This document shows positions 3,733 to 8,480 of a stretch of DNA of 64,000 bases, piece by piece. This DNA comes from Rhabdochlamydiaceae bacterium (GTDB taxonomy: Bacteria > Chlamydiota > Chlamydiia > Chlamydiales > Rhabdochlamydiaceae): contig JAJREF010000003.1 in NCBI GenBank assembly GCA_047459655.1, positions 159,759 through 223,758 of the forward strand, read 5' to 3'. Both the position numbers and the translations under genes were made by a program. Below the pieces are notes generated by a model. It made no database searches and had not been told where the DNA came from. It worked only from the letters and a program-made list of their open reading frames with translations. The stretch's first letter is position 1; each line of letters begins with the position of its first letter.

Positions 3733-5097
3733 CTATTTTACTGTTACAGGAATTAAAGAAGCAATCGCTTGAGATTGTAAAAAGCGCATGCGGAGCCAGT
3801 AAAGGACAAGGCTGCTAAAATGCATGATACTAAGAACTGTCCAGAAGAGGTCAGCTTGTATAGCGACTTTATTCATCATAAAATACATGAACAAAAAGCC
3901 GTTGATCCAGCCTATAAAGCCCATGAAAAGTGAAAATTTAGTGTCTTTAAAGGCTAGTATGTAGCTGATCGGGAGGTAACCAAAAGTAAAGAATGTAAAA
4001 GAGAGCCAAATCCCGGTAAATATTTTTTGAATATTCATGCTGCCAACGTCGATAGTAGGAAACAACCAATTGAAGGTTACATGAGGAAAGCAAAGCAAGG
4101 GAATCCCTACAATAACGATCATGATAGAGGCAAGCAAGGCTCCTGAGCGTAAAGCTTTACTTAAATAAGAAAACTTTTGAGCGCCAAGGATTTGAGACAC
4201 GACAGTTGTCTGTGCTTGACAAAGCGAATCTCCTAAAAAGGAAGAAAAAGAAATAGAGTACCACCGATAGAAAGGCTTAAAAGATAATCGCTGGATTTTC
4301 CTGAAGCAAGCCTTGCAATGAATACCCAGCAGATAAAGTTTAAAATCCGATTCGCAGCTCTTAAAAGGCCTGGCTGAATGCAGTGCCAAAATAACTTGAG
4401 CTGAAGCAACCAGCGATGAGAGTCAAATAAGTTGCGATTTTTTTTGGAAAGAAATGTAATGAGCAAAAAAAGACAGAAGCCCCCTTGTGCAATAAGAGTG
4501 CTAAGAACACCACCTGTTAAACCTAGACTAGGGATCCATCCCCCCATCCAAATATAAGCAAATAAGCAAATAACAGCTTAACAAGTTGTGAAGATATAGT
4601 TGCGATTACAATAAGTAGTGTTTTCCCTTGCCCTAAGTAAAAGCATGATAAGGCTGCACCTAAAGGATATAGAAAATTAATAGCCATTAGAAAACGAGCG
4701 TAAGGAACACCCACTCCGCTAAGAGCTGTATCGCGAAAATACAAATCACTACAGATCCACCCTATAGGAAAGACGATACACATCGATAGAATAGAAAACC
4801 AAATGAACTGCCAAATACCGGGCCCAACAGACTTGTAGTTCTGTGCTCCAATCCATCTCCCCACGTATACCTGCGCCATCATAGCAAGGGCCACGCAAGG
4901 AGCTTGGAATATTTGAGCAACATACGCTGCATTGACGGCAACTTCCATTACTTCCTTAGATATCCGAGCAAGAAAAAGCTTTTCGATCAGCAAAAGAAGA
5001 TAAGTAGAAAAACTCATAAGCAAGACAGAGAAAAAAGAGCCAACAACTCCCCCAGCCTCCCTGTCCGACCCATGATTTGTGGCTGCGCTACATCCAT
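3733..5097 (-). CDS. MATE family efflux transporter (split by apparent frameshifts into ORFs 4523..5140, 4233..4547 and 3733..4389)
   Basis: About 12 hydrophobic segments; MATE-like LIEKLFLARIS, LIFGW..IPSLGLTGGVLSTLIAQG and TVVSQILGA; start MDVAQPQ lies just after the SH2 stop. Confidence 0.85.
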
Positions 5098-5099
5098 TC

Positions 5100-5465
5100 T
5101 TAGTTTTGGAAAACTTTCGGATGATTAGCGCCTTTAGCACAGTGCATGATCAAATGCAATACATCATCGATAGATGCACGCGCAAAAGGTCCGCCAGTAT
5201 TTCCATTTTCATAGTGCCAGCCTTCTGGGCTCAGAGTGATGACAAAAGGTCTATGTTCTATGGTTAGATCTGGGCGAAGAAATGTAACGTAGTAGCTCAT
5301 TACACTTTCTCCAGCTCTTAGCAGATAGAGATACGGGGTTTTTCTTCCTCTTAATAACTTTTCTGCGGCTAATCCAGATAGGCTTTCATGCCATGCTGGA
5401 TGATCGGCTATCTCTTGCTCTATAGAGCTCAAGTAGTGGGTCTGTTCTTTCAATAAAGTAGACAT
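5100..5465 (-). CDS. Stand-alone SH2-domain-like protein
   Basis: WHESLSGLAAEKLL...YLYLLRAGES...YYVTF...TIEHRPF matches the SH2 pattern W(Y)HG.(I)S...AE.LL...FLVR.S...Y.LS...V.H. Confidence 0.75.
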   Translation of the reverse strand: MSTLLKEQTHYLSSIEQEIADHPAWHESLSGLAAEKLLRGRKTPYLYLLRAGESVMSYYVTFLRPDLTIEHRPFVITLSPEGWHYENGNTGGPFARASIDDVLHLIMHCAKGANHPKVFQN

Positions 5466-5467
5466 AT

Positions 5468-8400
5468 CTAATACTCCTGTTTTTTTTTGTAACAACTTCT
5501 TGCTACGCTAAATAGCCCACAAAAAGATCTGTGAAATATATTCAAATCTTTTCTTACCAGCGCTTGGGAGGGTTGGTAAAAAATGGGGACAACTGGCATC
5601 TCTTGAGATAAGATTCCTTCCGCCTGTAATAGGTAGGAAGATCGTTGGAAGGGGTTGACTGCATGATCACTTAAATCGAGGAGATGATGAAAAGACGGGT
5701 GTTCCCATTTCGCAAAATTAATTTTTTCACTTGCATATTTAAAAGCATTGAGCGTGTAGATAGGGTCATCAATCCAAGAGCTCCAGTGTACAAGTGCCAT
5801 CTGAAAATCTCCATCAGAAAGTTTACTAAAAAGTTCTCCCCATATTAGAGACTTAAGGTTACACTCAATGCCGAAGTAGTCCTTGAATTGTTGCTTTAAG
5901 TTAAGAGCTGTATATTCTCCAATACCCTTTTGGTAGAAAAGCAAGTTAATCGGTGGAAAAGTTTGCAGAGATAACCCCAATTCCTCTAGCGCCTCATTAA
6001 AAAGTAAGCGGGCTTTTTGTACATCATGAGCTGGAAAAAGAACGTGGTTATCAATCGAGTGAGCGTGGTTATCAATCGAGTGAGCAGAAAGAAGAGGGGA
6101 ATAAGCGGGTATCAAAGGGAGAAAAGAATTAGCAATGATCTCGGCACGGTTAATGGCAAACGCGAAAGCCTGGCGTAACTTTTTATGGGAAAATAAATGG
6201 TGCGTCGTATTAAAAACACACCAGTAGACCAAACTATTGGGAAAAGAAAGAAGAGTGTCGTCTTTTTCTGCAATATACGATGGATGCCAAGATCCAAAAG
6301 GGTTGCCAATCCAATCAATCTCTTTTTCTGAAAAGCTTGTATGGCTTGTAGAGGAGTTACACAAGTTATAATAATTTGATCCCATGATGTATAGCGAGGA
6401 TCCCAGTAAAAAGGATTACGTATTAAGTGATATCCTTGACTAGGATGATTAATTTTTAATTGGAAAGGACCGTTACATGGGTAGTTTTTTTGTGATTGAA
6501 AAGGCCACTGGGGGTGTTCTTGATCTATTAGTCTATGTACAGGAGAGTAAACAGGGTGTGCTATGAGCTGCAGAAAGTGAAGAGTGGGCCGTGCAAGAAC
6601 AACTTGTAGTGTCCGATCATCAATAACGCGGATTCCTACTTGATCCAAAGGGACCCTTCCTTCTTTTGCTTCTTTCGCATTATGAATAGGGTAAAACCAG
6701 TAAGCAAAAGAAGTTTTAAAATCAGGCGAAAGGATTTTTTTCCATGCATATTCAAAATCGTATGCAGAGATAAGCGATCCATCATTCCACTGGGAATGGC
6801 GGAGTTTAAATGTGTATTCCAGCAGATTAGGAGAGATGGTAATAACTTCTGCAATAGCATTTTCAACGCTACCGTGCTGGTCAAGCCGTGTAAGACCTTC
6901 AAAAAGAAGCCTTAATATGTTTCCCGATCCATCATCTCCCCCGATGCGGGGATCTAGAAATAGCATCAAATGCTCCAGCCCAATCCTTAGAATTTGCTGA
7001 CCTTTCATTTTTTGATGCCATTTATGGAGCGCTTCTTGCAATGCCTGGATGAAAGCGGCCGTTTCTGTCGTTTGAGAGGATAAAAGAGCGCAGTTAAAGA
7101 AGAATCTCTCTTCTATATCGATAGTATTGTATACGATTTCCGGCAAGCGGAAGATCCCATCTCGAAGCACAGCTGAAATGACATCTCTAATAGAAGGATC
7201 TTCTCCATAAACACATAAAAAAATCCCTGCATCTTGTCGGTGAATTTTAAGAGAGTAGGGGCAATCAGAGGAGATCTGTTCAAAGCGGTTTTCAAGAAAA
7301 TGAGCAAAAAGGGAAAAAAGCACGTGCTCCGGCATGAAAGCCTGTTTTTCTAAAGGAACTAATCCGTAAAAAAAAGTTTCCATTAGTTCAGGATCACAGT
7401 TTGCCAGGTCTGAGAAATTGTCTTTAAAGTGCTGAAAGAGTTCTTGTTGCTTGAGGAGAATTCCTCCATTATAATCGCGGAATTCACCAATAGCTGTGAC
7501 TAGTAAGGAGACAACTTTTTTTCTTGCAGCATAGAAATCCAAAGAACCGTCTGATCTTAGTAAATTATCTGTACGTAGAAGATGGAGACGGAAAACCTGT
7601 CCTTCTACAGGGCGATTTTCAAGGTGCTTAACAGTCATTATACGTTCAGAGACAAAAGAACAGTCGAAAAAACGCTCTTTGAGTAAAAAGCGATGGAAGG
7701 GTGTTACATATACAAGTGCAATGCGAAAAATAATTTCTTCACCCGTCTGCTGATCGAGGGTAATGTAAGCTTGGGGAAGGTCTTGAACGGATTGAATTTC
7801 TTGGTTAAGCACGAGAATATTCTTATAAATTTCTTCCTCGTTGAGACCTCTAAAAACACCAGGGGTCAGAGACTCGATACTCTTTTTGATCTTCTTGCCC
7901 AAACTAATTTTGAGTAAATTTTGTTCTTGGAAAGAAAAAACAGAACCATCTTTTTTCTCAATCTCAAGGTAGAAGAGTTTTAGATTTTTATGTTGACCTG
8001 TATGGCAATAAGAGCTCTCTTTAACTACTCTGAACTCAGGGAGATGCTTTTGCAATGAAAGTTTGATGTTTTCTTCATCGAATAATTCATACCTGCCCAT
8101 CATATTGCATCCAATGAGGCAGCCCCAAACAGGTTTCGAGAAAAGGGAAATGACAAATGCGTAGGTATCCATCTGATCTCAATGCGGCGAACGTGAGGAG
8201 CGAATGTCACTGTACGAAGTAGTTTCTTTCGTAGGAGGTGGACCGATATAACAAGGCGAACAAGGTGGGAAACGTTACGATGATCGAGGAACTCTTTTGT
8301 TCCAAGTAAATAGAGAAGGAAGAGATCGTTTAAAATGGTGTTATCTACAATAGCTGGAAAACGGTCCAACCATTTTTGTATTTTTTTGTAAACAAGACGA

Positions 8401-8480
8401 AAGCAAGGATGGAAATCGAGCAAGCATGTGTTGCCTGACATCTCCTGGAGAAACCCTTCATCTTGTTGTAGTACGATCAT
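5468..8480 (-). CDS. ~1000-aa fusion: ~480-aa uncharacterised N-terminal region + OppA/SBP family 5 peptide-binding domain (two apparent frameshifts)
   Basis: C-terminal half has SBP5 motifs LDPRIG, LLFEGLTR, YTFKLR..WNDG..ISAYDFEYAWK, NGPF and LRQAFAFAINR; ORFs 8100..8480, 6112..8172 and 5468..6385 join end to end; no signal peptide or lipobox visible. Confidence 0.82.
6043..6085. repeat. 21-bp tandem duplication (AHSIDNH x2) in the OppA domain
   Basis: CGTGGTTATCAATCGAGTGAG repeated twice. Confidence 0.9.

What the first reader, a model, noticed from the sequence alone, without database searches (positions are those of the whole stretch)
3733..8480. Candidate new signalling/export system: cytoplasmic OppA-fusion + SH2 protein + MATE exporter operon
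Seen: three co-oriented genes with only 2-nt gaps (OppA-fusion stop 5468-5470 then SH2 ATG at 5465; SH2 stop 5100-5102 then MATE ATG at 5097), closed by a hairpin at ~3703-3726. No oppBCDF permease or ATPase genes are nearby, and the OppA-like protein has no signal peptide or lipobox. Established: OppA proteins normally are exported and partner an ABC importer; SBP5 domains are reused as intracellular sensors in SgrR-type regulators; SH2 domains read phosphotyrosine; MATEs export small molecules. Inference: an intracellular ligand sensor, a phospho-reader adaptor and an exporter act as one module, for example in sensing and exporting a peptide or metabolite. A eukaryote-like kinase gene follows immediately downstream. 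I do not know of a described system with this composition.
Basis: partly seen in the sequence, partly recalled or inferred. Interest (0 to 1): 0.85.

Follow-up and report, generated by a model that had tools for sequence, protein, structure and literature searches.

The report
Chlamydial inside-out peptide export module
Environmental chlamydiae keep three genes together - a peptide-binding-type protein that lacks an export signal, a small protein with the SH2 fold known from eukaryotic signalling, and a membrane exporter - which likely catch short peptides inside the cell and pump them out, an arrangement not found in the papers searched.

Summary
The operon is real and conserved. In 40 loci picked only on the SH2-like gene, the fusion is adjacent in 34 and the MATE in 33; the trio survives six gene arrangements. 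Frameshifts are mostly assembly errors. The fusion's N-terminal half is predicted to be tandem ACT-like domains resembling the regulatory segment of large glutamate dehydrogenases (structure only). Its OppA domain lacks the Asp that anchors a peptide's N-terminus (0 of 79). The small protein has the SH2 fold but an incomplete phospho-pocket, and is dispensable: fusion and MATE are adjacent without it in 9 loci. In one nested clade a LanB dehydratase and short-core precursor peptides replace it, and five fusion paralogues in one genome each face their own precursor. The kinase is not part of the unit. Best reading: cytoplasmic capture and MATE export of short modified peptides (0.45); rival: peptide-signal receptor (0.25). 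Binding was not tested. This scan found the trio before in another genome (e1-9931203); the ACT-like fold, the SH2 losses and the peptide link were not in that note's shown lines.

The parts
5468..8480 (-). Fusion gene (about 1000 aa when intact): ACT-like N-terminal region plus signal-less family 5 solute-binding domain; two frameshifts in this assembly
   Evidence: intact same-genus homologues 71-74% identical by segment; 259 homologues at E<=0.001
6997..8480 (-). N-terminal region: helical motif plus three predicted alpha/beta ACT-like domains (long forms carry one more); invariant E216, P236, A319, R320, G332, R335, D336, N338, G339, G340, P376 (L021 numbering); boundary approximate
   Evidence: no significant Pfam match in 39 members; model pLDDT 85; best fold matches large GDH; Atlas leads; alignment
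5471..6996 (-). OppA-type solute-binding domain (PF00496); the W-x-x-D aspartate of OppA is Trp here
   Evidence: (B. subtilis OppA 8are E 8.6e-72 for the L021 homologue)
5100..5465 (-). 121-aa SH2-fold protein with an incomplete phosphotyrosine pocket (betaB5 Arg50 present; alphaA2 Gly, betaB7 Gly, betaD6 Pro)
   Evidence: (Pfam SH2 13.3 bits, below cut-off 21)
3733..5097 (-). MATE-family transporter (about 457 aa when intact) of a module-linked subfamily; three frameshifts in this assembly
3702..3727 (-). Weak hairpin after the MATE stop; not a convincing terminator

Best explanation
The fusion and the MATE, which are inherited together across environmental chlamydiae, likely form a binding-protein-assisted exporter: the signal-less fusion would catch a short, probably N-blocked or modified peptide in the cytoplasm with its OppA-type cleft and hand it to, or gate, the MATE, which would pump it out. 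Shown: the gene linkage, the domain make-up, the missing lipobox, the missing N-terminus-anchoring Asp, the incomplete SH2 pocket, the loss of SH2 in some lineages and its replacement by LanB plus precursor genes in one. Predicted: the ACT-like fold of the N-terminal half. Inferred: that the ligand is a peptide; that the ACT-like domains oligomerise the fusion or couple export to amino-acid status; that the SH2-fold protein is an accessory, phosphate-independent peptide- or tail-binding subunit (as JAK SH2 domains are) that supplies or selects cargo. The cargo may be self-made or may be unwanted peptide imported from the host by Opp.
For: Linkage: of 40 loci picked on the SH2 profile alone, fusion 34, MATE 33, both 31; of 77 loci picked on the N-terminal region, SH2 52, MATE 48, both 44, with 10 at contig ends (the sets overlap). 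Six gene orders and orientations among 69 triples, so it is more than operon inertia. Pairwise distances track each other (Spearman fusion-MATE 0.84, fusion-SH2 0.69, SH2-MATE 0.63; kin are not independent). The fused SBPs of the SH2/MATE group are one branch (56 rows, SH-like 100; L040 and two tandem copies in L088 were placed in that group without their own SH2). Core is fusion plus MATE: adjacent without SH2 in L176, L177/L271, L181, L262, L270, L272-L275. Peptide link: in five of these a full LanB (PF04738+PF14028) converges on the MATE; in four of the five an 81-148 aa precursor-like ORF lies just upstream of LanB, with a D-[IV]-Y-x-[LV]-D-like leader box resembling that of a chlamydial LanA (L250) and a short Thr/Gly-rich tail; in the fifth (L270) a second fusion lies between LanB and the precursor. 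No LanC was found in G191 or G258 (98-99% complete). These fusions form one branch nested among the window's closest relatives (8 rows, SH-like 100). The SBP is closest to peptide binders OppA and DppE, but Asp is absent at the amine-anchoring position in 79 of 79 (role of that Asp recalled from OppA structures). A MATE occurs in a short-peptide RiPP operon elsewhere (wgkD, 'predicted transporter', PMC8092268 passages; weak NCBIfam match 32.6 bits against cut-off 510). N-terminal region: catalytic-only aspartokinases (258-277 aa; Pfam shows only AA_kinase for the two scanned) lie directly upstream of the stand-alone form in 5 fetched loci and in this genome, fitting a regulatory subunit.
Against: No ligand, transport or contact is shown. 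The LanB link is probably one evolutionary event, and LanB was not found in this genome or its 97%-complete congener; only 1 of 20 LanB loci read widely lay beside a fusion. Five fusion paralogues in one genome face a precursor with no MATE between them, which fits a receptor at least as well. Fusion plus SH2 occurs without an adjacent MATE (8 of 77), though G005 and G307 carry a close MATE elsewhere; other fused forms have neither partner (L067-L072, L280-L289). The missing Asp is shared with a class of free lipoprotein OppAs, so it is not specific to the cytoplasmic form. The GDH likeness is modest: Foldseek E 1e-5 but TM 0.22, Z 8.1 over 105 residues at rmsd 3.5, Atlas scores 0.75-0.86, and no significant profile match to chlamydial GDH N-termini (E 0.03).
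Confidence: 0.45

Rival explanations
1. Peptide-signal receptor system, like RRNPP or SHP/Rgg: a small gene yields a peptide that the MATE exports and Opp re-imports; the fusion is the intracellular receptor and its ACT-like region acts on a target enzyme or regulator rather than on the MATE.
For: Five diverged fusion paralogues in one genome (68-79% identical among the four compared) each face their own precursor paralogue (63-76%), with a single MATE/LanB locus, the pattern of receptor-propeptide pairs with shared machinery. Several module copies per genome and tandem SH2 copies. oppBCDF is present. The stand-alone N-region sits beside aspartokinase and amino-acid transporters.
Against: No DNA-binding or catalytic output domain was detected. 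Most modules have a folded SH2 protein, not a propeptide. The paired copies could be passive segment duplications. Fusion and MATE distances track more closely than either tracks SH2.
Confidence: 0.25
2. Metabolite-gated efflux: the SBP and ACT-like domains sense an amino acid or other small non-peptide metabolite and switch on the MATE to shed an excess; the LanB clade is a later recruitment.
For: ACT-like segments of large GDHs are proposed metabolic sensors (10.1101/2020.11.14.381715, parts 1-2 read). The N-region is found in 265 of 301 genomes of the order, mostly stand-alone near amino-acid genes. The peptide-anchoring Asp is lost.
Against: The SBP's nearest solved relatives are peptide binders, and the one informative neighbourhood is a peptide-making one.
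Confidence: 0.12
3. One reading: a phospho-signalling relay in which the SH2 protein reads a phosphorylated residue made by the neighbouring kinase and links sensor to exporter.
For: True SH2 fold; betaB5 Arg in the window's protein and in 55 of 79; nearest eukaryotic Atlas cluster is of the Spt6 SH2_2 type, which binds pThr/pSer (score 0.87, a lead only; PMC7530234 passages).
Against: Both described pocket types need a second basic residue at alphaA2 or betaD6 (PMC6208348 passages); 1 of 79 has it, and betaB7 is Gly in 67 of 79. The kinase had no BLAST hit in 177 loci, is absent at this position in both congeners and has a stop at codon 11. One SH2-less locus (L067) has a kinase-like ORF by eye 4.7 kb away.
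Confidence: 0.07
4. The SH2 protein is a secreted effector acting in the host cell, as Legionella SH2 proteins are, and lies beside the other two genes for regulatory or historical reasons.
For: Chlamydiae have type III secretion (own knowledge); 8 of 10 Legionella SH2 proteins translocate (PMC6208348 passage); the gene has a variable N-terminus, evolves fastest and multiplies in tandem.
Against: It stays with the fusion or the MATE through inversions; its first 15 residues are no richer in Ser/Thr/Pro/Asn than those of the MATE (a crude test); its pocket lacks the Legionella features.
Confidence: 0.06

Closest known systems
OppA/DppE family 5 solute-binding proteins of Opp ABC importers (PF00496; PDB 8are, 8ay0)
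   Same: C-terminal 500 aa is a full family 5 SBP (E 8.6e-72 to B. subtilis OppA).
   Different: No signal peptide or lipobox, fused behind about 490-660 aa of ACT-like domains, no W-x-x-D Asp, linked to a MATE instead of OppBCDF.
SgrR-type regulators (cytoplasmic family 5 SBP as sensor; recalled)
   Same: Family 5 SBP reused inside the cell behind an N-terminal module.
   Different: No SgrR_N or other HTH family was detected in 39 N-regions; the N-region is ACT-like and much longer.
N-terminal ACT* segment of large NAD-glutamate dehydrogenases (L-GDH180; PDB 7jsr, 7a1d)
   Same: Best fold match by two methods and by language-model features; alternating helical motifs and ACT-like domains.
   Different: No catalytic GDH domain; about 11-13% identity; no significant profile similarity to chlamydial L-GDH N-termini.
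SH2 domains: eukaryotic (PF00017), Legionella LeSH/RavO, JAK and Spt6 atypical SH2
   Same: Fold (Z 10.8 to PLC-gamma1, rmsd 4.1 over 107 residues; all 50 listed rows are SH2-containing chains); betaA Trp and betaD4 His conserved.
   Different: No alphaA2 Arg, betaB5 Arg in 70%, betaD6 rarely basic; stand-alone and encoded in a transporter operon; own conserved W-x-Y-x-N-G and H-C...P motifs.
RRNPP and SHP/Rgg peptide systems with RiPP operons carrying a MATE (tryglysin wgkABCD)
   Same: Short peptide, cytoplasmic peptide-binding protein, MATE and Opp in one logic; propeptide-receptor pairs.
   Different: Receptor here would be an SBP rather than a TPR protein, with no HTH; Gram-negative intracellular hosts; most copies carry SH2 rather than a propeptide.
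TRAP transporters (binding protein plus secondary carrier; recalled)
   Same: A solute-binding protein paired with an ion-driven carrier rather than an ABC ATPase.
   Different: TRAP binding proteins are extracytoplasmic and feed import; here the SBP lacks a signal and the carrier belongs to an export family.

Membership tests
Opp ABC importer (OppA) | Family 5 SBP domain | tested here: met
   PF00496 above cut-off in both pieces
Opp ABC importer (OppA) | Signal peptide or lipobox | tested here: not met
   pattern and hydrophobicity check, 0 of 40 and 1 of 120; SignalP itself not available
Opp ABC importer (OppA) | Asp of W-x-x-D that anchors the peptide amine | tested here: not met
   0 of 79; aligned to 8are; role of the Asp recalled
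Opp ABC importer (OppA) | Works with OppBCDF | not testable with these tools
   oppBCDF is elsewhere and lacks an oppA; ordinary oppA genes are also scattered
SgrR family | N-terminal HTH (SgrR_N) before the SBP | tested here: not met
   no such Pfam match in 39 N-regions at E<=0.1; model shows ACT-like alpha/beta domains
Large glutamate dehydrogenase | GDH catalytic domain | tested here: not met
   only PF00496 on full-length fusions
Large glutamate dehydrogenase ACT* segment | ACT-like domains with helical motifs, homologous to L-GDH | tested here: inconclusive
   fold matches E 1e-5 and Z 8.1, Atlas 0.75-0.86, profile comparison not significant
SH2 domain | SH2 fold | tested here: met
   model pLDDT 85; fold search; profile E 1.7e-7 to RasGAP
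Phosphotyrosine-binding SH2 | betaB5 Arg plus a basic residue at alphaA2 or betaD6 | tested here: not met
   1 of 79; criterion from PMC6208348 passages
Phosphotyrosine-binding SH2 | Binds phosphopeptide | not testable with these tools
   needs an assay
MATE family | Two MatE repeats, about 450 aa membrane protein | tested here: met
   PF01554 above cut-off with 2 stretches in intact homologues; below the TIGR00797 cut-off (80-107 against 147 bits)
MATE family | Ion-coupled export | not testable with these tools
   acidic residues conserved at 291 (D/E 71 of 74) and 386 (D 69 of 74); no assay
RRNPP / SHP-Rgg peptide signalling | TPR-type receptor with HTH or phosphatase output | tested here: not met
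   no such family on the fusion
RRNPP / SHP-Rgg peptide signalling | Adjacent cognate propeptide gene | tested here: inconclusive
   present in the LanB-linked clade, not seen at the window's locus
Class I lanthipeptide cluster (for the LanB-linked variant) | LanB together with LanC | tested here: not met
   LanC not found in G191 or G258; G301's LanC is in another cluster

The most novel reading that the evidence does not exclude
A new class of transporter or signalling unit: a binding-protein-dependent secondary exporter turned inside out, in which a cytoplasmic OppA-ACT fusion loads modified peptides onto a MATE and a borrowed SH2 fold works inside a bacterium without phosphate. Its LanB-linked branch would make short dehydrated peptides with cognate cytoplasmic receptors, which would amount to peptide communication between obligate intracellular chlamydiae.
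Probability: 0.35. Interest if true: 0.9.

Novelty: categorically new. Interest (0 to 1): 0.72.

Why it matters
Solute-binding proteins are known as outside partners of importers, and bacterial SH2 domains as host-directed effectors. Here both appear in a conserved bacterial module that points the other way. It gives a first structural handle on a protein family present in most environmental chlamydiae (265 of 301 genomes searched) that has no Pfam model and is annotated only as hypothetical or, when fused, as a peptide ABC substrate-binding protein. One genome paper counts 13 OppA paralogues as periplasmic (PMC6490308 passage), so such counts may include cytoplasmic fusions. The precursor-fusion pairs supply named candidate ligands, which makes peptide export or signalling in intracellular symbionts directly testable in vitro.

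Tried and rejected
Inter-protein covariation on 69 triples (effective 47): top scores did not exceed controls; underpowered, no conclusion. Expression: no RNA holder listed. Profile comparison of the N-region with 25 or fewer chlamydial GDH N-termini and with itself for internal repeats: not significant. Sequence search of the N-region against PDB: only designed repeat proteins and noise. Middling fold hits to lipoate/biotin ligases (Z 5.5-7.1) were considered as a sign of catalysis and set aside as a common arrangement, though invariant charged residues leave this open. Misassembly or pseudogene: rejected, except that the ~4233 MATE break is shared by both assemblies. Kinase as a member: rejected. 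General dependence on LanB: rejected (27 of 301 genomes; 19 of 20 LanB loci read widely had no fusion beside them). A paper recalled on dipeptide export by E. coli MATEs was not found and is not used. Literature searches for a prior description (listings only, plus passages of PMC6208348 with 0 mentions of chlamyd, and PMC6490308) found none; subscription papers and supplements were not seen, and the supplement of PMC6208348 may list non-Legionella SH2 domains. The maximum-likelihood SBP tree did not finish; FastTree was used, with no clade test.
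Full report
Observation. The fusion has two breaks and the MATE three. This assembly is error-rich: 26 of 49 conserved genes tested are broken, 0.67 frame switches per kb. A second assembly of a run holding this DNA, possibly the source sample, repairs the breaks at 4539, 5030 and 6322, shares the one near 4233 and does not cover the one near 8130. 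Same-genus genomes have intact genes in the same order. The closing hairpin is weak (-8.1 kcal/mol, no U-tract). The kinase behind it has a stop at codon 11 and is absent at this position in both congeners.

Conservation. The fusion family is large: 259 proteins at E<=0.001, mostly 985-1020 aa among the 120 listed. Record titles of the 77 best GTDB loci are mostly chlamydial (Parachlamydiales, Rhabdochlamydiaceae, Simkaniaceae, Waddliaceae, Parachlamydiaceae); others read 'uncultured bacterium', Verrucomicrobia or Melainabacteria, which I did not verify. An SH2 profile hit 50 of 300 genomes of the order. I fetched 40 of its stronger hits in genomes not used to build it: the fusion was adjacent in 34, the MATE in 33, both in 31, and some misses are contig ends. 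Of 77 loci picked on the N-terminal region, 52 have the SH2-like gene, 48 the MATE and 44 both; 10 end at a contig edge, and five more carry diverged SH2-like ORFs by eye only. Of the 47 best MATE hits, 42 lie at loci where I had seen a fusion; that profile was built from module MATEs, so this is partly circular, and a wider chlamydial MATE family (194 of 300 genomes) was not examined. Among 69 triples there are six arrangements, 39 collinear and 23 with a convergent MATE. Distances correlate across the three proteins, and the short-fusion branch holds members of eight or more families, suggesting cassette transfer; no donor test was run. BLAST with the window's kinase found nothing in 177 loci.

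The fusion. No lipobox-like pattern was seen in 40 locus proteins or in 119 of 120 homologues, whereas 18 of 26 neighbouring free OppAs had one under a looser pattern. The C-terminal half is closest to B. subtilis OppA and DppE. The Asp of the OppA W-x-x-D motif is absent in 79 of 79, as it is in one class of free lipoprotein neighbours. The N-terminal half has no significant Pfam match. Its model (from the L021 homologue, about 73-75% identical; pLDDT 85, pTM 0.59) shows a helical motif and three alpha/beta domains. Foldseek ranks the M. smegmatis large GDH first (E 1e-5, TM 0.22), VIA-align ranks it first too (Z 8.1, 105 residues, rmsd 3.5), and the named Atlas hits are GDH ACT and helical-motif families (0.75-0.86). 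A profile comparison with chlamydial GDH N-termini was not significant. The L-GDH180 paper (10.1101/2020.11.14.381715, parts 1-2 of 4 read) describes these ACT* domains as oligomer interfaces and possible metabolic sensors. The same region exists alone: directly after a 258-277 aa aspartokinase without ACT domains (L073-L077 and this genome's C1), twice followed by a gene that looks by eye like a BrnQ-type amino-acid carrier, and after lipoprotein oppA clusters (L058-L066). It was found in 265 of 301 genomes and not in the listed 1.0-1.2 Mb genomes of family f35; 1020 cluster representatives match it.

The SH2-like protein. Pfam is below cut-off for the window's copy, but a 21-row profile retrieves SH2-containing chains from the PDB (best E 1.7e-7) and the model's fold matches are SH2 proteins (Z up to 10.8). 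The pocket is incomplete: alphaA2 is never Arg or Lys (0 of 79), betaB5 is Arg in 55, betaB7 is Gly in 67, betaD6 is basic in 2, and one protein has betaB5 Arg with a second basic residue. PMC6208348 (passages) describes two pocket types, each with two basic residues. PMC7530234 (passages) describes JAK SH2 domains that bind receptor tails without phosphate. The family's own conserved residues (W83, N87, G88, C109, P116) lie, by my reading of the SH2 topology, toward the specificity side. The gene occurs in tandem copies (L021, L029, L085, L110) and is missing in some lineages: fusion and MATE are adjacent without it in 9 loci, and in a tenth another gene is inserted between them.

The peptide clue. 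In five SH2-less loci (L176, L177/L271, L181, L262, L270) a full LanB dehydratase converges on the MATE. In four of them an 81-148 aa ORF lies just upstream of LanB, with a leader box like that of an ordinary chlamydial LanA (L250) but only a short Thr/Gly-rich tail, repeated as a cassette in L177; in L270 a second fusion lies between LanB and such an ORF. LanC was not found in G191 or G258. In one genome five further fusion paralogues each face their own precursor paralogue with no MATE or LanB between (L173-L175, L179, L270). These fusions are one branch nested among the window's nearest relatives. It is probably a single event, and LanB was not found in this genome or G001, so it shows what the fusion-MATE pair can serve, not what it serves here. 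A dehydrated N-terminal Thr hydrolyses to a 2-oxobutyryl cap (own knowledge), a ligand without a free amine, which would suit a cleft without the anchoring Asp; that is inference.

Mechanism. Best reading (0.45): cytoplasmic capture and MATE export of short modified peptides, with ACT-like domains for assembly or metabolic control and the SH2 fold as an accessory phosphate-independent subunit. Rivals: intracellular peptide-signal receptor (0.25), metabolite-gated efflux (0.12), phospho-relay with the kinase (0.07), secreted SH2 effector (0.06).

Comparison and novelty. It is not an Opp importer subunit, an SgrR regulator, a GDH, a canonical phosphotyrosine reader or an RRNPP system by the features tested; it may work like an inverted TRAP transporter or like a propeptide-receptor pair. 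Six searches for a prior description showed none; closed-access papers and supplements were not seen.

Noticed in passing
window 3470-3655: Near-perfect palindrome (z -13 against shuffles) with about a dozen partial or full copies across the genome; looks like a MITE.
   Followed up: partly
window 3651-3673: End fragment of a second repeat family, 59 matches of 18 nt or more in the genome, often starting at TTAA and sometimes as inverted pairs about 166 nt apart; probably another non-autonomous element.
   Followed up: partly
window 1900-3345 (-): Eukaryote-like Ser/Thr kinase (PF00069, 111.8 bits) with an in-frame TGA at codon 11 that the second assembly shares; lineage-specific insertion between MATE and efp; distant paralogues on C1 and C2.
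   Followed up: partly
G000:C1:536749-539272; L073-L077: Catalytic-only aspartokinase directly followed by the stand-alone ACT-like protein; candidate separate regulatory subunit. It is the only clear aspartokinase in this genome.
   Followed up: partly
L058-L066: One to three lipoprotein oppA genes (most with an A/S-Q-Y-x-D motif class) directly upstream of a 675-730 aa stand-alone N-region gene, with no oppBCDF beside them.
   Followed up: partly
L067:8537-13594; L068:9483-14582: Fusions of about 1690 aa with two SBP domains, followed by lipoprotein oppA genes.
   Followed up: no
L250-L269: Class I lanthipeptide-type clusters (LanB with 430-470 aa LanC-like neighbours, some with an EpiD-like gene) in 27 of 301 chlamydial genomes, with Cys/Thr-rich precursors in L250 and L263; no ABC exporter was evident beside most.
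   Followed up: partly
window 44294-47362 (-): Intact 1022-aa large glutamate dehydrogenase; in L072 its orthologue lies just downstream of a fusion and an oppA.
   Followed up: partly
window 8675-9448 and 10547-11179 (-): Two ORFs with a hydrophobic stretch and coiled coil, Inc-like by eye; the first has a perfect 21-nt tandem repeat at 8921-8962.
   Followed up: no
window 6040-6081: 21-nt tandem duplication inside the SBP domain (adds 7 codons relative to homologues).
   Followed up: no
L114:5805-6173; L116:6031-6405: SH2-like genes without fusion or MATE, between a 488-497 aa unknown protein and rimO next to oppB; this genome has a homologue of the unknown protein on C1.
   Followed up: partly
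L026:7837-8463; L028:11765-12631; L197; L212: Longer (209-289 aa) tandem or diverged SH2-like proteins after long-form fusions that lack an adjacent MATE.
   Followed up: partly
G079, G100, G202, G301, G315: Weak SH2-profile hits inside large ORFs (409-2520 aa); L117's scores PF00017 above cut-off, so chlamydiae hold other SH2 proteins, possibly effectors.
   Followed up: no
L164:9486-10540: A truncated fusion is followed by a type III polyketide synthase and tailoring-type genes.
   Followed up: no
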